In this document: positions 2,002 through 57,247 of the stretch, piece after piece
Layout: each line of letters opens with the position of its first letter
How positions within the stretch are numbered: position 1 is the first letter of the stretch
Assembly (NCBI RefSeq): GCF_006345805.1
Contig: NC_042997.1
Coordinates: 102,176,001 to 102,240,000 of the forward strand
Direction: 5' to 3'
DNA from: Octopus sinensis
Lineage: Eukaryota
DNA length: 64,000 nucleotides
Notes under the pieces: model-generated
Told to the model about the DNA's origin: nothing
What the model saw: the letters and a program-made list of their open reading frames with translations, nothing else
The model's database searches: none
Position numbers and translations under genes: made by a program

Positions 2002-2418
2002 TATTTCTTTATTGCCCACAAGGGGCTAAAAATAGAGGGGACAAACAAGGACAGACAAAGGGATAAAGTCGATTACATCGACCCCAGTGCATAACTGATA
2101 CTTAATTTATCGACCCCGAAAGGATGAACGGCAAAGTCGACCTCGGCGGAATTTGAACTCAGAACGTAACGACAGACGAAATACCTATTTCTTTACTACC
2201 CACAAGGGGCTAAACACAGAGGGGACAAACAAGGACAGACAAACGGATTAAGTCGATTATATCGACCCCATTGCGTTACTGGTACTTATTTAATCGACCC
2301 CGAAAGGATGTAAGGCAAAGTCGACCTCGGTGGAATGTGAACTTAGAACGTAACGGCAGACGAAATACCGCTAAGCATTTCGCCTGGCGTGCTAACGATT
2401 CTGCCAGCTCGCCTCCCT
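2002..2418 (-). mobile_element. tRNA-derived SINE family A, head-to-tail dimer
   Basis: A box TGGCAGAATCG; B-box-like GTTCA(A/C)ATTCC; central GACTTTGCCTT(T)CATCCTTTCGGGGTCGAT domain present twice; TSD tactg(g)atttattct at 1987-2001 and 2419-2432. Confidence 0.9.
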
Positions 2419-12175: not shown

Positions 12176-12337
12176 TGATATAAGTGCATATGTAGTTTAA
12201 AAACTACAATAATGCTCGAGACAGACAAGTTATCACACAATACAATAAAGAAGATGTATATGTATATTTAAATAGCCACAAAGGTATAAAAAAATATGCA
12301 GGAAAAAAATTCTACTTTTTCCCATAATACCAGAAAC

Positions 12338-12372
12338 TTTAGCAGTCAATTCTTTAAGAATTGACTGCTAAA
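12338..12372. repeat. Perfect 17-bp inverted repeat with 1-nt spacer
   Basis: tttagcagtcaattctt-t-aagaattgactgctaaa. Confidence 0.95.
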
Positions 12373-13039
12373 CGTTCTAGATGAAAATTTTTAAATATTT
12401 CTTGAATTTAAACACTTTATAGCTTACATACGGTAAACAAGTAAAGTGGAATTTCATTTATTTCAACCAAAATAAAAATCAACAAGCTACAATAGACCAA
12501 ACTTGGGTATTCATCTCAACTATATTTCTTAACTTTCCCATTTTCGAACACTATAAACTCCTTTTTAAAAGAAATGATAATGCCTCGATAATATACATTC
12601 TAATCGATCCACATGCATTCATTTAAGAATAAGCTTTCGTCCTTCATATGATTTAGACAACATACATAATGTCTAGTGGATGACAAATTACGCTTAATGA
12701 GCTTTTTAGAATATTTTACCAATCCCTAGAAAAATAACGTTGCAGACATTACAAGTGCATTTGTGCCATTTGGCTTAATCGGGCATGACTAAACGAGACA
12801 TTTCGAATATATCTCATAGTTTATCTTTCCTTCAGTTAAATACAGCATAACATTAGCCAATATCGTCCTGCCTGCACTCTGTCTTGGTAAAAGATGTGAT
12901 GGCCACTGCTTGAAAACTGTTGGCCACGTTTGCACACTGTCGGGGCTTGTCAGAGGCTAAACAACGATAAATTTGAAAAACTACTCCGGTAATTTATTCA
13001 TACCACCTTAATAAATAATTTAATGCTCACATAGGCAAG

Positions 13040-13511
13040 GGATCTTTTCGGTTTGAACGGCAGTTTTTAACATAATTTCTAACCCTAAATCTATAACACC
13101 GCTAGAAAAAACGGCAGGTTTTTCTAGCGGTGTCATATGAAATGATAACCCATAATTATGACCCTAGAATCGATCTATTGCATTTCAATCTATTTTAGAT
13201 TTAGGGTTAGTTAGGGTTAGGGGTAGGGGTGGGGGAAGGGTATCTTTTTTTCTTCACAAATGTAAATAAACCCAATCTGTTTCTTAAACGAGGGACATAT
13301 TCATACGGCACAGAATGCTTTCACCTCAATAGACGGTTATTGATTGGTTTAAACTGCCGAAATGCAAGAAATTAAAGACCAAATATCTTACAAACTATAG
13401 AATTTTCTCAATAAAGCCAAGAGAAAAAGATGTTTTATAAACACATTCTACCAGTATACGAAGTTTAAAATATTTCAGTTACCTAGAAATTATGTTAAAA
13501 ACTGCCGTTCA
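13040..13511. mobile_element. Non-autonomous TIR element with TTAGGG-like internal tract, preceded by an inverted mosaic copy
   Basis: 28-bp inverted repeat 13054-13081/13484-13511; further stems 13079-13093/13196-13210 and 13096-13110/13119-13133. Confidence 0.75.
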
Positions 13512-13514
13512 TGG

Positions 13515-13697
13515 TATTATTTTTTATCTTTTTCTTGTTTAAGTCATCAGACTGCCGCTATGCTGGGGTACCAGCTTGAAGAATTTTTAGAGGAATGAAT
13601 CGACCCCAGTACATTTTTTTTTTTTAACGCTTGATACTTATTCTGCAGGGGATTCTTGCAGAACCGCTAAGTTACGGGTACGTAAACACTCCAACGC
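13515..13697 (-). mobile_element. SINE family B, 3' part
   Basis: Reverse complement of the family B 3' region (…CGTAACTTAGCGGTTC…CCCCAGCATAGCGGCAGTC…AAACAAG). Confidence 0.8.
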
Positions 13698-14350
13698 CTT
13701 GTGCGTGGATTTGGTAGACGGAAACTGAAAGAAGCCTGTTTAAGCGGCGAACTGGCAGAAACGTTAGTCCGCTGGGCGAAATGTTTAGCGGTATTTCGTC
13801 TGCTGTTACGTTCTGAGTTCAAATTCCGCCGAGGTCGACTTTGCCTTTCATTCTTTAGGGATCGATAAATTAAGTACCAGTTACGCACTGGGGTCGATGT
13901 AATCGACTTAATCCGTTTATCTGACCTTGTTTGTCCCTTCTGTGTTTAGCCCCTTGTGGATAGTAAAGAAATAGGTATTTCATCTGCCGTTACGTTCTGA
14001 GTTCAAATTCCGCCGAGGTCGACTTTGCCTTTCATTCTTTAGGGGTCGATAAATTAAATACCAGGTAATCGACTTGTCTGTCCTTGTTTGTTCCCTCTAT
14101 GTTTAGCCCCTTGTGGGCAATAAAGATATAGGAAACTGAAAGAAGCCTGTCTTGTGTCTGTCCCCCACCACCACTTGACAACCGGTATTGGTGTGTTTAC
14201 GCCCCCGTAACTTAGTGGTTCGGCAAAAGAGAACGATTAAATAAGTACCAGGCATTAAAAAAGTAGTGCGGTCGATTCATTCGACTAAAAAGTTCTTCAC
14301 GGCGGTGCCCCAGCATGGACGTGGTCAAATGACTCAGACAAGTAAAAGAA
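13698..14350 (+). mobile_element. SINE family B interrupted by a family A dimer
   Basis: GTGGATTTGGTAGACGGAAACTGAAAGAAGCC body resumes at 14131 and ends in GACTCAGACAAGTAAAAGA. Confidence 0.85.
13740..14130 (+). mobile_element. SINE family A dimer with perfect 20-bp TSD
   Basis: ggaaactgaaagaagcctgt at 13720-13739 and 14131-14150; two B boxes and two tails. Confidence 0.92.
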
Positions 14351-15231
14351 AAGGTAAATTATATAGTCGACTAAGAATTAGCCATCTCTTAATCGTTCTG
14401 TTATCTAACAACCGATTTTAATAGCCAGTGCAAAACCGATTGGTAAAATCGGCTGTAATGGCTTTGATTTATGCTTGTGCGTGTGTGTGTGTGTGTGTGT
14501 GTGGTGTGTGTGTGTGTGTGTGTGTGTAATATTATATAGCGAAAAAAAGTTTAAGAAGTTACTTTCACCGTGTTTCAGTATCCTGTTAATCCCCAATTCA
14601 AAAAGTTACTTTTACATTTTGAACCAAATCTCAGAACCACCTAATCTGTATGTGGGAGGGGCGTACGTTTGTGTGAGTATGTTGCTGTGTGTATACATAT
14701 ACATATATGTGTATATACATACACACTTTTATCTCTGTCTATATCTCTCTCTCTCTCAAGCGCACACAAACCTACCTAACGTATCCTACACGAGAGCTAG
14801 GCATGACATATATATACATTTATTCTTGTTACAGACATTACCAAATTTTTGAGATTCCCTTATAAAGATGAAAGCAAGAAATATAACACTCAAGAGTTAG
14901 TCTATATAGCATGTTTTTACCTCACTTATGTTCCAGGGTAATTTACCAATGCCAACAGCATTGATGGCTTGACTATTAGGTTTCTGTGCAACGAAACGGA
15001 TACAAAAAAAACCATCTATTTATATCGGAAGACATGTCTATTTGTCTTGGCATGTAGCTCAGATTTACGCTCGAATACTTTTCTCTATGTTGGTATAATA
15101 AAAAAATTTAATGAGCCAGTTTCTAAATTTGTATCGTATATATACAGCCTGACAAATAGATATCATTTGACAAAAGTTATCTATATGACTGAATTACTAA
15201 AACTTCATATCAAAACGTATCTTTTAACTGT

Positions 15232-15414
15232 TATCTCTTGCTTTTTCTAGCCGTTGGACTGCAGCCATACTGGGGCACCGCCTTGAAGAATTTTTTAGTC
15301 GAACAAATCAACCCAAGTATTTATTCTTTCGACTTTTTGCCGAACCTCTAAACTACGGGGACGTAAACATACCGACACCGGCTGTCAAGTGGTGGTGGGT
15401 GGGGAACAAACAAA

Positions 15415-15448
<34 letters not shown>

Positions 15449-15605
15449 ACAGGCTACTTTCAGTTCTCGTCTGCCAAACTCACTCACAAGGCTTTGGTCG
15501 GCCCGACGCTATAGTTGAAGACACTTGCCAAAAGTGTCACGCTGTGGGACTGAACCCGGAACCATGTGGTCGGGAAGCAAACTTCTTACCACACAGCCAT
15601 GCCTG
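15232..15605 (-). mobile_element. SINE family B, near full length
   Basis: Minus strand CAGGCATGGCTGTGTGGTAAGAAG head, GGTTCAGTCCC B box, GGCAAGTGTCTT CORE/V-like motif, internal (TG)n. Confidence 0.88.
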
Positions 15606-16047
15606 ATAAAAAAAAAGGAAAGGAAAAGAAAAACGATAATGTGTATGATACGATAAACTTGTTTCACTGAGCATAGACTGACTGGAAATCAATCTCTCGA
15701 TTTCTGTTTGAAGCTTTGTTTAAATTTGAAGCTTAGTAAGCGAGAACAAGGTCTTACTCATTTCGAAGCTGTGACTGCAACCGGGACTGTCACTTACATA
15801 CGGGTTTCTCTAGTTTACCGTAGACACTGCTCTACCAAGAAGACCAAAACAAGACTTTACAGGAGCAGAGATCCGGTTTCGAGAAATTAACGAAGACCAC
15901 AACCTGTAACTATCTAACTTAGGATGGACTTAATTCCACTTTTTTATGAAGCGTACCCTTTTATCTATTTACTCATTTATTTATTTATTTATTTATTAGT
16001 TATATACTTTCGTGGCTGTGTTCAATAAATTTTTAAAGAAAAAAACA

Positions 16048-16346
16048 TTGTGAGTGGATTTGGTAGATGGAAACTGAAAGAAGCCCGTCGTATATATGCA
16101 TATATATGCGTGTGTGTGTTTGTGTGCCTGTGCTTGTTCCCCTAGCATTGCTTGACAACCGATGCTGGTGTGTTTATGTCCCCGTTACTTAGCGGTTCGG
16201 CAAAAGAGACCGATAGAATAAGTACTGGGCTTACAAAAGAATAAGTCCCGGGGTCGAGTTGCTCGATTAAAGGCGGTGCTCCAGCATGGCCGCAGTCAAA
16301 TGACTGAAACAAGTAAAAGAGTAAAAGAGTAAAAGAGTAAAAGAGT
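16048..16346 (+). mobile_element. SINE family B, 5'-truncated, (AAAAGAGT)n tail
   Basis: Family B body and tandem tail repeat. Confidence 0.88.
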
Positions 16347-16574
16347 ATTAAGGGGACGATATAGTTAAATCAGATACTACGCTATATGATATATATTACG
16401 ACTCATTGTGGCTTAGTGAGTTTGTAATATGACGCCAGGTACGTGCAGATAGTAACACGTTCAGTATTCAAACTGCACAATCGATCAATTTATGATAATG
16501 AACACATTCTTTTGCTACGTGTGTGTGGGTGTGTTTCATTTAGTTTTGGTTTTATAGAGCGGATATAACAGACT

Positions 16575-19505
16575 AGGTTGTGTGGTTAAGAAGCTCACTT
16601 TGTAGTCATGTGGTTTGGGTTCAATCCCATTGTTCATCGGCAACTTGGGCAAGTGTCTTCTACTATATACTCGAGTCGACCGGTGCCTTGCGAGTGAATT
16701 TAGTAGACGGAAACTGTGTGGAACTCCATCGTATATGTCTTTGTGTGTGTGTGTGTGTCCTCACACTGTTTGTCGTCCCCGTAACATAACGGTTCAGCAA
16801 AAGAGACTGATATAAGACTTAACAATAAATAAGTACTGGGGTCGATGATTTCGACTAAAAATCCTTCTAGGAGGTGCTCCAGCGTGGCCGCAGTCCAGTG
16901 ATTGGAGCAAATATAAGATAAAAATAAGTAGGATGCCCAGCCTCGGTTTATAGCTAAAAGATGATGATCAGTAGCATCCGTGTTTCCTATGAAAGAAAGA
17001 CGGATATATATCTCAATGAGGATTGTGATTGTAGTCTGGTAGATAATGCAATTTTTATCCAGCGGATAACATCATTTTGAAAGTCTAATTTCTAAGAATA
17101 CGGAAATGGGCGTGTTAAAATAGACAGAAATAGGTGCAGTAATATGTTATAAAAGCAAGGCAGCGAACTGGCAGAAACGTTAGCACGACAGGCGAAATGC
17201 GTAGCCGTATTTCGTCTGCCGTTATGTTCTGAGTTCAAATTCCGCCGAGGTCGACTTTGTCTTTCATCCTTTCGGGGTCGATTAAATAAGTACCAGTTAC
17301 GCACTGGGGTCGATATAATCGACTTAATCCGGTTGTCCTTGTTTGTCCTCTCTGTATTTAGCCCCCTTGTGGGTAGTAAAGAAATAGGTATTTCATCTGT
17401 CTTTACTTTCTGAGTTCAAATTCCGTCGAGGTCGACTTTACCTTTCATTTGGAGTCGATAAATTAAGTACCAGTCGCGTACTGGGTAAATCTAATCGACT
17501 GCCCCCACCCCAAAAAAAATTTCGGGCCTTGTGCCTGGAGTAGAAAAGAATCGTTATCACCCTACGCAAAATGCTTAGCGGCATTTCGTCTGTTTTCATG
17601 TTCGGAGTTCAAATTCTGCCGCAGCCAGCTATGCTTTTTTTCATCCTTTTGAGGTTGATAAAATAAGTACCAGTTGAACACTGGGGTCGATGTAATCGAC
17701 TTACCTCTTTCCCGGAAATGCTGGCCTTGTGCCAAAAGTTTGATATTAGCTCAGGCATGGCGATTAAGAAGCTTGCTATCAAACCATATGATTTCGGGTT
17801 CAGTCTTACAACGCGGCGTTTTGAGCAAGTGTTTTCTACTATGGTCTCGAGCCGACCAATGCGTTGATAATATATTTAGTAGACAGTAACTATATGGAAA
17901 ATGTTCGTGTGTGTGTGTGTGTGTGGTTGTATTTGAGTATATATATAAGTTGGTTTGTTTACGTCTCTAACTTAGCCGTTCGGCAAAAGAGAGTACTACA
18001 AAATAAGTACCAAACTTTAAAAAAATAAGTTCCAAGGGAGATTTGTTTGTCTAAAACCCTTCGAGACGTTATCCTACAATGACTGAAACAAGTAAAAGAA
18101 AAAAAAGATAATAATGTAACTTATGTTATCATGACTAAAATCGATCCCTTAAAATTTCCCAGAAATATTTCTAGAAATAATAAATCCAAATAAGGCTCAG
18201 GTGTGACTGAGTGGTTAGAAGCTTGCTTCACAATCACATAGTTCCGGGTTCAGCTCCACTTCATGGCATCTTGGGCAAGTGTATTCTACTATAGTCTCAG
18301 ACCGACCAGAAACTGTAAGAAGCCAGTCGTGTGTGTGTGTATGTCTGTGTCTTCCACCACTACTTGACAACCTGTGTTGGTGTGTTTACGTTCCCGTAAC
18401 TTAACGGCTTGACAGAATAAGCACCAGGCTTTTAAAAAAAGGTACTGGGGTCGATTCATTCGATTAAAAGTTATTCAAGGTGATGCTCCAGCATGACAGC
18501 AGTCTAATGAGCGAAACAAGTAAAAGATAAAGGCAGCGTGGAGGAATGAATTATCATGGGATTATAGTACCTTAAAATACATAAGAGGAATTATGGTTCT
18601 GGAGCCATTCGGACATGAATCAGCAGATTTATCTTCTGAAGTGATTCAGTTTTGACCATTCCGTATTTTTTCAGACAGTAAATATGAGAACACGTAATCA
18701 AAGTCTCTTTCGTTTTGAAGACAAGAGGGTGTGACTCAACTCTAATTCCCACAGGTCGGGCAACTACTTATAGATTTCTTAGTTGGCTTCAGGACTTGCT
18801 GTAGATGTCGGGCCTCATTTTCATGACTAATTTCCTCTGGCAGCTTGTAGCAATAATAGCTTTAATTTAATATACGATCACTGCTTAGTTATCCGTTTAC
18901 ATTTTGGCTTTTGCTTTAAAATACCAGACCTTATTATTTTTTGTTTATTAGTTTTTGGCTATATCACCAAGTCAGTGAAACAGATGCCGGATTGCAGGCG
19001 CAGGCGTGGCTGTGAGGTAAGATGTTTGCTTCCCAAACATATGGTTCTAAGTTCAGTCTCACAACATTGCACCTTGCTCAAGTATCTTTACTATGGCACT
19101 AGGCCGAGTAAAGCCTTGTAAGTGGATTTGGTGGACGGAAGCTCAAAAAAGTGCGTTGTATATATATGTGTGTGTGGGGAGGGTCTATCTGTCTGTGTCT
19201 GTATGTGTGTGTTTGTGGATATATACATACATACGTACGTATGTATGTATGTGTGTTTGTGTGTGGCTGTTTGTGTGTGTGTACGTGTGTGTGTTTGTTT
19301 CTGTATGTTTGTGTCTGTCACCCACTACCGCATAATAATCGATGTTGGCCTGTATACGTTCCTGTAACTTAGCAGTTAGGCAAAAGGGCGATAGAATGAG
19401 TACCAGGCTTAAAAGATAAGTGCTGTTGTTGATTTGTTCGACTAAACTCTTCAAAACGGTGCCCCAGAATGGTCACAGTCTGAAACAAGTAAAATATAAA
19501 AGAAC
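16575..19505 (+). mobile_element. Four + strand SINE family B copies (about 16575-16928, 17750-18110, 18193-18531, 18997-19505)
   Basis: Each has a tRNA-like head, an (G/A)GCAAGTGT-like motif, an internal (TG)-rich microsatellite and an A-rich tail of the AAACAAGTAAAA type. Confidence 0.85.
17157..17745 (+). mobile_element. SINE family A dimer followed by an older monomer
   Basis: Head at 17157; junction AAAGAAATAG|GTATTTC at about 17388; second unit carries the alternative CCCC…GGCCTTGTGCC tail. Confidence 0.85.
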
Positions 19506-35559: not shown

Positions 35560-37635
35560 ATCAGAATAGTTAGCACACCGGACATGATGCTTTGCGACAT
35601 TTCGTCCGCCTCGACGCTCCAGTTTCATGGTTGACTTTGCCTTTCATCCTTTCGGGGTCAATAAAATAAGGACCAGTTGAGTACTGGGGTCGATTTAATT
35701 GACTTTGCCTCTCCCTCAACACTGCTGGCCTTATGCCAAAATTTTAAACCGATATTCTAAGAGTGGTATAGCATAAGCATTTGAAAGCATTCCAAACTTT
35801 TCTTTTCCATTCTTCTGTACGGTATAATACTCGTACTACATCCACATATACTAATCTATATCTGCATACACACAAATACACATACACATAGAAAAGTAAA
35901 CATATTAGTCATGCCATTTTTATGACCAATTCTGATTGCAAAGAGATTTTAAACCGCACACGAGTGCGTACATACAAACATTACACATTACTAGTTCACG
36001 TCGTATATTCGATTGTTTCAGTTCTCTGGTTAAAAAGAATGTGAAGGTGGCGAGCTGGCATAAGCGTTAGCGTGTCGGCCCTAGCGTAGCTAGAGTATGT
36101 GCCGCTCGGGGTGGCCCTTCCGTTTGTCGCCCTGGACCCCACAAAAATCACATATTGCATACAGGAGATCCAAAAGTGCTGCCCGGGACAGACCGCACCT
36201 ACCACCTTCCCCCCTAGCTACGCTAGTGCGTGTGCTGACAAAGATGCTTTGCGGAATTTCATTCGTCTTTACGTTCTGAGTTCAAATTCCGCCAATATCG
36301 ATATACCTTTCGTTCTTTAGGGATTGATAAGCTAAAGTACCTGTGAAGTATCCACTAAAACTGCTAGCCTTGTGCCATCGCGTCAGGCAAAATGCTTAGC
36401 ATTTCGTTCGGTTTTAAGTTCTGAGTTCAAATTCTGTCGAAATCGATTTTGCTTTTCATCCTTTCGGGGACGATAAAATAAGCACCTGTTGAGCATCGGA
36501 GTCGATGCAATCGAGTAGCCTTTCACTCAAAATTTCAGGCTTTGTGCTTATAGTAAAAAGGAATTAAAAGAAAGTGTCTAAGTTTGATTTTAAATTACTT
36601 ATATCAAGCAATATATTGTGTAAATTTAAACAAGAGAGTGAGAGAGAAAGAAACAGTGAAAAGAGCAGTCGCTATTTTATGCGTACAGCAAAACAATTTC
36701 TATGTTTGGAAGACATTTCGCAGAATATTTTTATTTCAGCACTATTATTGATTTCTAACATAGACACAATACCTCGGAATTGATGGAGAAGCATAATACA
36801 TCATTTCGACCGTAGAACTTAACTGGTATTTTATTTTGTCGACACCGGAAGGACGAAAGATAAAGTTAACCTCAAAGAAAACGTTGAGTGCTGAAACAAA
36901 ATTCAACAAGGTAAATACCTTGTTGAATTTGTCCAATGTTCTTAACGACACTGCCAACCCACTCCATCTGATTTCATATTACTATTGGTGTTTTATTTTG
37001 GTGTGAAACAGTGTATTGACAGAACGCACCATTCCAATTTAGGTACAAGGCAGCAACTTTGAGCTGAAGGATTCGTCGATACTTGAATGGTACTTTGTTT
37101 CATCGAGCCCAGTAGGAAAACATTAAGTTCATCCCGGCGGAATTTGATCTCAGAACGTAACACTCTAACGATTCAGCTTGTTCGTAGTCTTATTCATTAC
37201 TAATATTGGTTTCAAATTTTGGTACAAAGCCAGCAATTTTGGGGAGGGGGTTAAGTCTATTACACCGACCTCAGTATTCAACTGGTACTTATTTTATTGA
37301 ACGTCAAAGGATAAAAGGCAAAGTTTACATCGACAGAACTTGAACTCTGAGCGTAAAGACAGACGAAATACTTAGCAGCATTTCGGTTCTGCCAGTTCAC
37401 CGCCTTATTCAATGTTAATATTGTTTTCAAATTTTGGCTCAAGGCCAGCAGTTTTGGGGGAGGAGTAAGTCGATTAAATCGACCCCGGTATTCAACTGGT
37501 ACTTATTTTATCAATTTCAAAAGGATGAATGGCAAAGTCGACCCTGGCGACATTTGAACTCAGAACGTAAAGACGGACCAGATGTCGCTAAGCATTTTAC
37601 CCGGCAAGCTAACGATTCTACCAGCTCGCCGTCTT
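35560..37635. mobile_element. SINE family A cluster (+ copies about 35560-35755 and 36043-36560; - copies about 36790-36960 and three in 37035-37635)
   Basis: Repeated B box and central domain on both strands. Confidence 0.8.
36079..36228. mobile_element. MITE (hAT-like) inserted in a SINE A head
   Basis: 13-bp perfect IR CTAGCGTAGCTAG (36081-36093) / CTAGCTACGCTAG (36214-36226); both flanks begin cgtgt. Confidence 0.75.
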
Positions 37636-43524: not shown

Positions 43525-43850
43525 TATTGGTTTCAAATTTTGGCACAAGGCTAGCAATTTCAATGAAGAGGTTAAGTCGATTACATTGACTCCACTGCTC
43601 AACAGGTACTTATTTTATCGATGCCGAATGGATGAAAGGCAAGTTCAACTCCGGCAGAATTTGAATTCGGAACATAAAGTCGGAAGAAATGCTGTAACAA
43701 TTCTTCCCGCTCACTGCCTTAATTTCAAATTTTGGTACAAAGCCTTCAGTTTCAGGGTAGGGGAAATTTGAACTCAGAATGTAATGACGGACGAAATGCC
43801 ACTAAGCATTTTGCCCAAAGTGCTAGCGATTCTTCCAGATCACCGCCCTA
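43525..43850 (-). mobile_element. SINE family A, two partial copies
   Basis: Reverse-complement tail (ggtttcaaattttggcacaagg) and B boxes. Confidence 0.75.
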
Positions 43851-43907
43851 TTCTTGATCATATTGAAATCGAGCAAAGTCACTGGTGTGGTAATATGTGG
43901 TGCCAGA

Positions 43908-44811
43908 AAGGCGGCGAGATGGCAGAATCGTTAGCACGCCGGGCGAAATGCGTAGCCGTATTTCGTCTGCCGTTACGTTGTGAGTTCAAATTCCGTCGAG
44001 GTCGACTTTGCCTTTCATCCTTTCGGGGTCGATTAAATAAGTACTAGTTACGCTCTGGGGTCGATGTAATCGACTTAATCCGTTTGTCTGTCCTTGTTTG
44101 TCCCCTCTGTGTTTAGCCCCTTGTGGGTTGTAAAGAAATAAGTATTTTGTCTGCCGTTACGTTCTGAGTTCAAATTCCGCCGAGGTCGCACTGGGGTCGA
44201 TATAATCGACTTAATCCGTGTGTCTGTCCTTGTTTGTCCTCTCTGTATTTAGCCCCTTGTGGGTAGTAAAGAAATGGGTATTTCGTCTGCCGCTGCGTTC
44301 TGAGTTCAAATTCCGCCGAGGTCGACTTTGCCTTTCATCCTTTCGGGGGTCGATTAAATAAGTACTAGTTACGCTCTGGGGTCGATGTAATCGACTTAAT
44401 CCGTGTGTCTGTCCTTGTTTGTCCTCTCTGTATTTAGCCCCTTGTGGGTAGTAAAGAAATAGGTATTTCGTCTGCCGCTGCGTTCTGAGTTCAAATTCCG
44501 CCGAGGTCGACTTTGCCTTTCATCCTTTCGGGGGTCGATTAAATAAGTACCAGTTACGCACTGGGGTCGATATAATCGACTTAATCCGTTTGTCTGTCCT
44601 TGTTTGTACTCTCTGTGTTTAGCCCCTTGTGGGTAGAAAAGAAATAGGTATTTCGTCTGTCTTTACGTTCTGAGTTCAAATTCCGCCGAGGTCAACTTTG
44701 CCTTTCATGCTTTCGAGGTCAATAAATTAAGCATCAGTTGCGTACTGAAGTCGATCTAATCGACTGGTCCCCTCCACCAAAATTGCAGGCCTTTTGCCTA
44801 GAGTAGAGAAG
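43908..44811 (+). mobile_element. SINE family A pentamer (185-bp period)
   Basis: One head, five B boxes; junction GGTA at 44277, 44462 and 44647; TSD-like aatatgtggtgccaga (43892-43907) / aatctgtggttgcaga (44812-44827). Confidence 0.92.
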
Positions 44812-44949
44812 AATCTGTGGTTGCAGAGCGTCTTGCAAACTGTTTCATATCACTTATCGTTGTTGATGGCATATAAGACGTACTATTTTCTTTAAAAGTA
44901 TTTCAAAAAATCGCCTTGGATCCTGTATGCGAAGTTGGACCTATATTCA

Positions 44950-56105: not shown

Positions 56106-56734
56106 TAAACTACACATATCGTAAACTAAGACTATGACAATGAAATATACAAATATCTCATATATTCATAAAACAGTGCACAACTTGTAACACAGTTGAC
56201 CACAAACTCAGTGTTAGAATATATTTCAACAACTCTAAAAAAACAATTTCTTTATTAATTCAAAATCATAAGATAGTAAGCCACTGAAAATACTACAGAC
56301 AATCAATGAAATATATAAATATGTTTTAATACAAAAAATGCTTAGCGGCATTTTGTCCGTTATATGATATGAGTTTAAATTCCACCGAGGTTGATTTTTC
56401 CTTTCCTCCTTTCGGGGTCGATAAAATAAGTGCTAATCATGCACTGGGATCAATGTAATCGATTTAAACTCTGCCGACCGAAATTGCTGGCCTTGTGCAA
56501 AAATTGTAAATCAGTATATATTTTAATACATAAAAGTGAACAAGAGGACCAGCTGGTAGGTAGAATCGTTACCGCGCCGGGCAAAATATTCAACGGCATT
56601 TCGTACGTCATTGCGTCCTGAATTCAAATTCCACCGAAACAAGACCGAGTAATGAGGCTAGCACGCACGCATGCGCGCTTGTAAAATAGTTCATGCGTGA
56701 GAAAGAAAATGCTTTGCAGTATTTTTTCTGGTTC

Positions 56735-56968
56735 AAGGCGGTGAGCTGGCAGAATCATTAGCACGCCAGGCGAAATGCTTAGCGGTATTTCGTCTGCCGC
56801 TACGTTCTGAGTTCAAATTCCGCCGAGGTCGACTTTGCCTTTCATCCTTCCGGGGTCGATTAAATAAGTACCAGTTACACACTGGGGTCGATATAATCAA
56901 CTTAATCCGTTTGTCTGTCCTTGTTTGTCCTCTCTATGTTTAGCTCCTTGTGAGTAGTAAAGAAATAG
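56735..56968 (+). mobile_element. Young SINE family A monomer inserted inside an older family A head
   Basis: TSD gtattttttctggttc (56719-56734) / gtatttttttatggttc (56969-56985); the older copy resumes with GTTCTGAGTTCAATTCC. Confidence 0.85.
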
Positions 56969-57247
56969 GTATTTTTTTATGGTTCTTTATGTTCTGAGTT
57001 CAATTCCCACTCAAGTCAACTTTTTCTTTCAACTTTGCCTTTCATCCTCTCGAGGCCGGTAAAATACCAATTGACTCAGGTCAATGAACTTGACTAAACC
57101 CCCATTCACCATAAAATTGCTAAAAATCTGAAACAATCATTATTATTATTTGGCTGTAGTACAGAATTAGTTACTTATTTTATTGACTCAAGAAGGATGA
57201 AAGTCAAAATCGACATTAGTAGAACTGAGTTCCACACGACATAATAT

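What the first reader, a model, noticed from the sequence alone, without database searches (positions are those of the whole stretch)
43892..44827. SINE that multimerises in a fixed 185-bp register and appears to retrotranspose as a multimer
Seen: family A occurs as monomers, dimers (2002-2418, 13740-14130, about 17157-17550) and a pentamer here. Internal junctions are essentially identical, tail …GTAAAGAAATAG|GTATTTC…, so each extra unit starts between the A and B boxes and has a B box but no A box. Whole multimers are bounded by TSDs. Terminal units share diagnostic bases across loci (GGGCAATAAAG in two dimers; the ATCTAATCGACTG…GGCCTT tail at 17157 and 43908). Inference: there are chimeric master elements with a variable-number 185-bp module, produced by reiterative template jumping, rolling reverse transcription of a circular 185-nt RNA, or repeated self-insertion. 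I do not know whether this has been described.
Basis: partly seen in the sequence, partly recalled or inferred. Interest (0 to 1): 0.72.

Follow-up and report, generated by a model that had tools for sequence, protein, structure and literature searches.

The report
SINE that grows inside older copies
A very common short jumping repeat forms tens of thousands of head-less tandem chains joined at one fixed spot across this animal genome; the chains likely grow in place, as young copies land inside older copies of the same family and then likely duplicate locally, rather than mostly jumping as ready-made chains.

Summary
The junction occurs 27,479 times exactly in the genome, and 206 of 275 tail-A joins in a 1.53-Mb sample (partly chosen on the junction) re-enter at consensus position 50. 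Inner units belong to one young sub-lineage (3.1% diverged). The head and last unit are older (about 5.5%), and the last unit comes from any subfamily that also exists as monomers. Each tail type joins at the site its 3' end matches: TAGT tails at +50, CAAT tails at +17. Unresolved 'double-head' insertions with 15-18 bp target duplications exist at +50. Longer arrays, this pentamer included, also show local duplication. Best model (0.6): junction-carrying RNA is reverse-transcribed into older family copies and joins seamlessly by homology. The RNA step is inferred; no partner LINE, RNA or empty orthologous allele was shown. Similar anatomy is published for blood-clam SINEs, but I found no paper on this mechanism. 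The scan found this before on other DNA of this genome (e1-10333171, e1-10356551).

The parts
43892..43907 (+). left target-site duplication (16 bp; 13/16 match to the right copy)
   Evidence: sequence
43908..43956 (+). SINE head (consensus 1-49) with an A-box-like motif at 43920-43930; carries the G45 allele (with C50) typical of young TAGT monomers, not of B monomers
   Evidence: Pol III role inferred from motif resemblance (recalled); no tRNA call by ARAGORN or Rfam
43957..44140 (+). unit 1 body and tail A (consensus 50-233), B-box-like motif at 43982-43994
44141..44276 (+). unit 2, head-less, 136 bp with a 49-bp internal deletion, TAGT tail
44277..44461 (+). unit 3, head-less, 185 bp, rare extra G shared with unit 4
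44462..44646 (+). unit 4, head-less, 185 bp; likely a local duplicate of unit 3
44647..44814 (+). unit 5: B-subfamily body and tail, the likely older host copy
44812..44827 (+). right target-site duplication (overlaps the last bases of the B tail)
2002..2416 (-). dimer: TAGT unit joined at +50 to a CAAT-type last unit; 14-bp TSD with one indel
13741..14130 (+). dimer: TAGT-like unit joined at +50 to a CAAT-type last unit; 20-bp perfect TSD
17157..17552 (+). dimer: TAGT unit joined at +50 to a B unit; B tail continues into an older C-type unit at +17; no flanking TSD
56718..56985 (+). full-length TAGT monomer (56735-56967) inserted at +50 of an old, decayed family copy; the 17-18 bp duplication carries the host's private changes on both sides (unresolved self-insertion)

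Best explanation
These arrays are a tRNA-like-headed SINE joined at one fixed internal site, and they likely grow in place: RNA of a young sub-lineage that reads through its tail into the next unit is likely reverse-transcribed at a nick in an older family copy, likely joins seamlessly by homology, and the array then likely expands by local duplication. Step 1 (shown): tails of the TAGT/TAAT lineage are followed by GGT(AT) both at the +50 junction and at the start of many TSDs in unique DNA, while CAAT tails are followed by AGA and join at +17. Step 2 (inferred): the RNA 3' end, or the unit-2 part of a multimer transcript, pairs with the nicked target, so family copies are preferred targets; no run of four T's in the unit would stop Pol III read-through. 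Step 3 (shown in a few loci, inferred for the bulk): when the 5' end does not resolve by homology a double head and a 15-18 bp TSD remain; usually the cDNA would anneal to the host's identical upstream sequence, leaving one head and the host's own outer TSD. Step 4 (shown as a pattern): adjacent inner units share rare variants, so arrays of three or more units expand locally. Each new multimer would be a new source of junction-carrying RNA (inferred feed-forward loop).
For: Age asymmetry in 103 head-bearing chains: non-CpG divergence head 168/2950 (0.057), first body 203/6642 (0.031, like TAGT monomers 0.032), last CAAT 0.042, last B 0.065; paired first vs last p=4.7e-8, n=97. The change falls at about +50 in the first unit and between +67 and +90 in the last. 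First units are TAGT/TAAT in 98 of 103 and middle units in 54 of 55; last units are B 36, CAAT 24, CAGT 11, TAGT 9, O 4, C 2, TAAT 2, unresolved 15. In genome-order samples, 21 of 74 B units and 21 of 82 CAAT units sit behind a +50 junction and most of the rest have no junction upstream; 48 of 100 TAGT units lead into +50 and 1 of 100 is a last unit. Tail sets register: TAGT +50 186, +17 0; CAAT +17 24, +50 3. Monomer right flank starts GGT in 25 of 68 TAGT/TAAT vs 0 of 41 CAAT/CAGT, and AGA in 15 of 41 vs 1 of 68. The double-head footprint has 92 exact matches; of 24 independent loci read, 10 by a strict script rule and 16 by my reading of the print-outs return to +50 behind a 15-19 bp duplication, with A, B or C hosts; window 56735 is such a case. 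At +17 the upstream unit is younger than the downstream one (0.055 vs 0.085, n=31, p=0.011). Multimer TSDs are less preserved than those of young monomers (34 of 70 vs 38 of 56 with at least 11/12 matches, p=0.025) and like those of host-type monomers (39 of 68, p=0.28). Local expansion.
Against: The head is not always the host's: the G45 allele occurs in 9 of 34 B-ended arrays against 0 of 29 B monomers, and this pentamer and the 17157 dimer are such cases. Head and last-unit divergence do not correlate in the larger sample (rho 0.09, p=0.38; p=0.047 in the smaller one). Rare variants at +50 to +75 are not shared between first and last units above chance (2 of 61, p=0.28). CpG decay in multimer heads and last units (0.09-0.13) is about half that of B and CAAT monomers (0.14-0.27), so hosts would not be a random draw. 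A first TSD test found no difference (25/550 multimer, 32/664 young, 34/616 host-type mismatches), and TSD score did not track last-unit divergence. Double-head footprints (92) and the antisense +138 site (108) are about 250-300 times rarer than seamless junctions, so short microhomology alone does not explain the numbers. One array with old outer parts has a perfect TSD (C1:15757757). No partner LINE or transcript was identified.
Confidence: 0.6

Rival explanations
1. Multimers mostly retrotranspose whole from chimeric source loci. The old-looking head and last unit would be inherited from many different source loci that were already chimeric.
For: TSDs bound 40 of 66 complete multimers. No T4 run in the unit or junction. 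All-young multimers with perfect TSDs exist, and one dimer 5'-truncated at +74 has an 18-bp TSD. Monomer TSDs that start with GGT imply that junction-spanning RNA is reverse-transcribed. TSD mismatch rates did not differ. Low CpG decay fits transcribed source loci (inference).
Against: Two-fold age gap inside arrays and star-like last units of six or more subfamilies. No first-last linkage (the control was positive in one of two monomer sets). TSDs older than those of young monomers. Double-head footprints show the junction being made in place. It still needs an in-place step to make the chimeric sources.
Confidence: 0.15
2. After a few founding insertions, DNA-level events alone (ectopic gene conversion from multimer donors, unequal crossing-over, slippage) spread the junction and lengthen arrays; the register is simply inherited by homology.
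For: Adjacent inner units are close (12 of 72 pairs under 2%). Dimers share rare variants between units at +101 to +167 (15 of 221 vs 3.6 expected). 65-bp head-only tandem arrays exist. Crossover points vary inside head and last unit. Unequal recombination is the published suggestion for clam and reptile SINE arrays.
Against: It does not explain two tail-matched registers, GGT- and AGA-starting TSDs in unique DNA, or TSD-bearing double heads. Conversion of about 28% of B and 26% of CAAT copies needs a directional drive, while recombination between direct repeats should favour loss (inference).
Confidence: 0.15
3. A 184-nt circular RNA (positions 50-233) is copied round and round by the reverse transcriptase, primed by homology on a nicked family copy.
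For: Position 50 lies just 3' of the loop of the main head hairpin. In the folded 50-233 fragment the two ends pair with each other. Inner units are always head-less and often share variants.
Against: 73 of 103 chains are dimers. Donor-type heads and head-bearing GGT-TSD monomers need linear RNA. The circular fold is less stable than the linear one (-33.3 vs -39.6 kcal/mol). It does not cover the +17 register (period 217).
Confidence: 0.08

Closest known systems
TSD1-(SINE)n-TSD1 arrays of the blood clam Scapharca broughtonii (PMC11481361; passages seen)
   Same: One complete head, repeated head-truncated units in a fixed register, one outer TSD pair, in a mollusc.
   Different: There the first and inner units have truncated tails, 64 elements lie in arrays of 4-15 units, and unequal recombination is suggested. 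Here inner units keep whole tails, the last unit is from another, older subfamily, junctions number at least 27,479, and there are insertion footprints.
SINE-derived satellites (sSats) of squamates (PMC10702118; part 1 of 5 and passages)
   Same: Tandem repeats of part of a SINE with distinct leading and trailing units.
   Different: sSats are long, likely subtelomeric arrays; here most arrays are dispersed dimers and trimers with TSDs and two tail-matched registers.
Head-to-tail multimers of rodent B2 and jerboa Dip SINEs (PMC8466645; passages)
   Same: A large share of copies lie in multimers of up to eight units; the authors leave insertion versus dimeric template open.
   Different: Those units are described as full-length (PMC10702118 passage) and may insert into tails; here units are head-less and join at an internal site.
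R1/R2 site-specific non-LTR elements (PMC6895275, PMC3414825; passages)
   Same: cDNA annealing to homologous upstream target DNA gives a clean 5' junction (proposed for R2); repeated insertion at one site builds tandem arrays (R1).
   Different: Those are autonomous, target rDNA by a specific endonuclease, and R1 copies are separated by TSDs. Here the target is the SINE's own family and no specific endonuclease is known.
SINEU-3 / Tx1-Mar of crocodilians (PMC4494074; passages) and nested Zepp clusters (PMC3446292; passages)
   Same: Retroelements that prefer a repeat as target and stack by sequential insertion.
   Different: SINEU-3 targets another family (Mariner) and keeps TSDs between copies; Zepp is an autonomous LINE with one cluster per chromosome.
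Octopus tRNA-derived SINEs OK, OR1, OR2 (Ohshima and Okada 1994; seen only as a citation)
   Same: Likely the same or a related family (recalled resemblance; no call names the organism or family).

Membership tests
SINE | short, interspersed, high copy number | tested here: met
   233-bp monomer consensus; 69,726, 20,595 and 8,676 exact tail motifs genome-wide
SINE | variable-length target-site duplications | tested here: met
   TSDs of 10-20 bp in 48 of 68 TAGT/TAAT and 46 of 72 CAAT/CAGT/B monomers
SINE | tRNA-derived head with Pol III A and B boxes | tested here: inconclusive
   A- and B-box-like motifs by eye (consensus recalled); ARAGORN found no tRNA; Rfam gave only a sub-threshold miRNA hairpin hit
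SINE | Pol III transcription | not testable with these tools
   no raw RNA run was offered
SINE | 3' tail shared with a partner LINE | tested here: inconclusive
   no LINE upstream of tail-only hits in 1.53 Mb; another repeat shares the 3' part of tail A (output partly cut)
True dimeric/complex SINE (Alu-like master dimers) | all units of a copy have the same age | tested here: not met
   first 0.031 vs last 0.055, p=4.7e-8
True dimeric/complex SINE (Alu-like master dimers) | linked left and right arm variants and fixed composition | tested here: not met
   last unit of six or more subfamilies; no first-last linkage, limited power
True dimeric/complex SINE (Alu-like master dimers) | TSD around the whole multimer | tested here: met
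   40 of 66; also expected if the TSD is the host's
SINE-derived satellite (sSat) | tandem units that are part of a SINE and homogeneous within a locus | tested here: met
   adjacent inner units 4.9% vs 9.1% between arrays
SINE-derived satellite (sSat) | long arrays (four or more middle units), likely subtelomeric | tested here: not met
   93 of 103 chains have 2-3 units; longest seen 10; junctions are dispersed along C1
Target-specific non-LTR system (R1/R2/Tx1 type) | recurrent insertion at one nucleotide position of a repeat with a TSD | tested here: met
   double-head loci at +50, antisense loci at +138
Target-specific non-LTR system (R1/R2/Tx1 type) | specificity set by the partner's endonuclease | not tested
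   partner not identified; the many insertions in unique DNA and the tail-matched registers argue for RNA pairing instead (inference)
CORE/Meta-domain SINE superfamilies; octopus OK/OR1/OR2 | central domain matches the published consensus | not tested

The most novel reading that the evidence does not exclude
A SINE sub-lineage that homes by RNA-DNA homology: transcripts of multimers are reverse-transcribed into older family copies at a fixed site, which has turned about a quarter of the older B and CAAT copies into multimers, each a new source of the same guiding RNA. This would be a self-amplifying, RNA-guided retrohoming loop without a site-specific endonuclease, and a direct route from SINE to satellite.
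Probability: 0.4. Interest if true: 0.8.

Novelty: new variant of a known kind. Interest (0 to 1): 0.58.

Why it matters
SINE multimers are usually read either as master dimers or as recombination products, and the authors of the B2/Dip survey left the choice open. Here two sub-lineages with different 3' ends use two different fixed sites in their own family, and unresolved intermediates survive, so the role of RNA-target pairing in non-LTR target choice and 5' joining can be tested on tens of thousands of natural events. It also warns that a TSD around a multimer does not show that the multimer jumped, and that repeat dating and SINE presence/absence markers in this genome mix two ages in one annotated copy.

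Tried and rejected
Orthologous monomer test: contigs of related organisms were laid on window 12200-19200 and on L055:4400-5900. Contigs broke inside the SINE and joint tables were swamped by paralogues, so monomer versus dimer could not be told. Organism E's contig reaches 24 bases into the head at 17157, so an element was there before that split. No RNA holder was listed; this is no evidence on expression. First TSD clock: no difference, biased by trimming. Head-last correlation: weak, absent. Shared rare variants at +50 to +75: not above chance. Mantel tests: null, and one of two positive controls also null. Partner LINE: a DNA search with tail A returned only SINE-like hits and tail-only flanks gave no LINE. 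Rfam and ARAGORN: no tRNA. Monomer fold z = -1.57, not significant. Rejected: assembly artefact or chance (27,479 dispersed junctions, diverged units); a purely local tandem duplication (register shared genome-wide, last unit of another subfamily); short microhomology alone (footprints 250-300 times rarer than seamless junctions). A genome-wide count of head-joined versus junction-joined B units was not obtained; it was estimated from 74 genome-order loci instead. Literature: nine searches found no paper on these octopus multimers or on a self-targeting SINE. Subscription journals, Repbase, Dfam, the 1994 and 2015 octopus papers and all supplements were not seen and may describe the family.

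Full report
What is there. The pentamer is real: a 49-bp head at 43908, then five units in one register, the second shortened by a 49-bp deletion, the fifth with a different (B) tail, inside a decayed 16-bp duplication (13/16). The three dimers are confirmed; TSDs are clear at 13741 and 2002 but absent at 17157, where the B tail runs into an older unit at consensus +17. The junction 22-mer occurs 27,479 times exactly in the 2.72-Gb genome, reversed control 0. The genome is likely an octopus; this is recalled from the repeat and from earlier scan notes, and no call names it. The tRNA origin is by motif resemblance only.

Data set. I merged the window and 300 loci into 246 stretches, 1.53 Mb, with 572 SINE clusters, all on contig C1. 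Eighty loci were chosen on the junction, ten flank the window, and the rest were chosen on three tail motifs in genome order, so pooled counts lean towards junctions; the genome-order samples do not. Clusters within 80 bases of a stretch end were dropped from the chain statistics. Of 275 joins after an A tail, 206 re-enter at +50, 30 at +17 and 9 at +44 (one extra tail repeat); none of 46 joins after B, O or C tails is at +50.

Subfamilies and positions. All copies share head and body but differ in tail: A (variants TAGT, TAAT, CAAT, CAGT), B, and the older O and C. In genome order, 48 of 100 TAGT units lead into +50 and 1 is a last unit; 1 of 82 CAAT units leads into +50, 21 follow it, 41 bear their own head; 21 of 74 B units follow +50 and 29 bear their own head. 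So the 'terminal diagnostic bases' are ordinary monomer subfamilies. In 103 head-bearing chains (73 dimers, 20 trimers, 10 longer) first and middle units are TAGT/TAAT in 152 of 158 cases, while last units are of at least six kinds.

Two ages in one array. Non-CpG divergence is 0.057 in heads, 0.031 in first bodies, 0.036 in middle units, 0.042 in last CAAT and 0.065 in last B units; monomers give 0.032 (TAGT), 0.041 (CAAT), 0.047 (B); first versus last p=4.7e-8 in 97 arrays with enough aligned sites. The step lies at about +50 in the first unit and between +67 and +90 in the last; the +50 to +66 bin of last units is biased by selection on the junction. A multimer that jumped whole from a master would have one age. 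TSDs of multimers are less preserved than those of young monomers (p=0.025) and like those of host-type monomers (p=0.28) in an anchored test; an earlier test showed no difference. Against a simple host model: donor-type heads in 9 of 34 B-ended arrays, including this pentamer; no head-last correlation; no excess of shared rare variants at +50 to +75; and low CpG decay in outer parts.

Target choice follows the 3' end. TAGT tails join at +50 186 times and never at +17; CAAT tails join at +17 24 times and at +50 3 times. Monomer right flanks start with GGT in 25 of 68 TAGT/TAAT copies (20 of 51 with a called TSD) and 0 of 41 CAAT/CAGT copies, which start with AGA in 15 of 41. These match the +50 and +17 sites. 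The same lineage also lands antisense at +138 (108 exact matches). A pattern for 'site +51 to +62, 2-10 bases, new head' has 92 matches. I read 24 independent loci from the first 30 matches (six were further copies in head arrays): 10 by a strict rule and 16 by eye are a full copy inserted at +50 with a 15-19 bp duplication, in A, B or C hosts, and in 9 of the 24 the site before the new head is an existing junction. Window 56735 is a clear case with host-private changes duplicated. These footprints show the junction forming in place, but they are about 300 times rarer than seamless junctions, and the match in unique DNA is only 3-5 bases. So longer homology must matter; I infer RNA that runs on into unit 2. 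The unit and junction have no T4 run. The +50 site also lies at the tip of a hairpin, and the junction is itself an inverted repeat; whether this matters is untested.

Local expansion. Adjacent inner units differ by a median 4.9% (n=72) against 9.1% between arrays (n=2,808), p=8e-15; 12 pairs differ by under 2%. The extra G of pentamer units 3 and 4 occurs only 485 times in the genome, and 9 of the first 100 matches lie in four 185-bp-spaced clusters. Pentamer units are mosaics of one another. This fits DNA-level duplication, or repeated copying of one template.

Mechanism and rivals. Best (0.6): homology-guided reverse transcription of junction-carrying RNA into older copies, seamless 5' joining, then local duplication. 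Shown: fixed registers, tail-target match, footprints, age asymmetry, local clustering. Inferred: the RNA, the nick, the seamless join and the feed-forward loop. Whole-multimer jumping (0.15 as main route) probably happens for some all-young arrays. DNA-only spread (0.15) and a rolling circle (0.08) are not excluded. The orthologous-site test failed for technical reasons.

Known systems. The nearest anatomy is the clam TSD1-(SINE)n-TSD1 array, attributed to unequal recombination; squamate sSats and B2/Dip multimers are related. The nearest mechanisms are R2 5' joining by homology and R1 or SINEU-3 stacking at one target. I saw passages only of these papers, part 1 of 5 of the sSat paper, and no supplement; passages of PMC13282606, PMC4758252, PMC4824008 and PMC3531059 added no mention of the multimers. 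Nine searches found no description of this family's multimers or of a self-targeting SINE. Two unreviewed scan notes on other DNA of this genome reach the same reading; my reading was recorded before I saw them, and they are not independent evidence. They led me to two papers.

Verdict. Observation confirmed; interpretation partly supported; new variant of a known kind; interest 0.58.

Noticed in passing
G000:C1:195358956-195359245 (L350-L354), C7:15322785-15323079, C3430:1574-2207: Tandem arrays of the SINE head alone (period 65-67 bp, up to 10 or more copies), likely amplified from double-head insertions.
   Followed up: partly
L331-L345; 108 exact matches genome-wide: A third hot spot: TAGT/TAAT copies inserted antisense into family copies at consensus +138, many with a TSD.
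   Followed up: partly
G000:C1:24800452, 15719800, 11568607, 31090512: Another repeat shares the 3' 45 bases of tail A, has its own upstream sequence and ends in (TATC)n-like repeats; a candidate sister SINE or partner-LINE 3' end.
   Followed up: no
L055:4834-5660: Two TAGT+B dimers lie head to head about 30 bp apart, each with its own TSD.
   Followed up: partly
sample-wide: CpG decay in TAGT monomers (0.03-0.17) and in multimer outer parts (0.09-0.13) is about half that of B and CAAT monomers (0.14-0.27) although non-CpG divergence is as high; may reflect targeting of unmethylated or transcribed copies.
   Followed up: no
window 37189-37578 (-): Head-to-tail pair of older C-type copies, period 214, the same period class as the +17 register.
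   Followed up: no
window 43542-43847 (-): Older family fragments on the opposite strand about 60 bp upstream of the pentamer.
   Followed up: no
window 16875-17180: A contig of organism E (about 5% diverged) runs 24 bases into the SINE head at 17157, so an element was at this site before that split.
   Followed up: partly
L366 (G000:C5:23945700): A full CAGT copy appears inserted at +17 with a short duplication of the A-box site, a double-head footprint for the second register.
   Followed up: no
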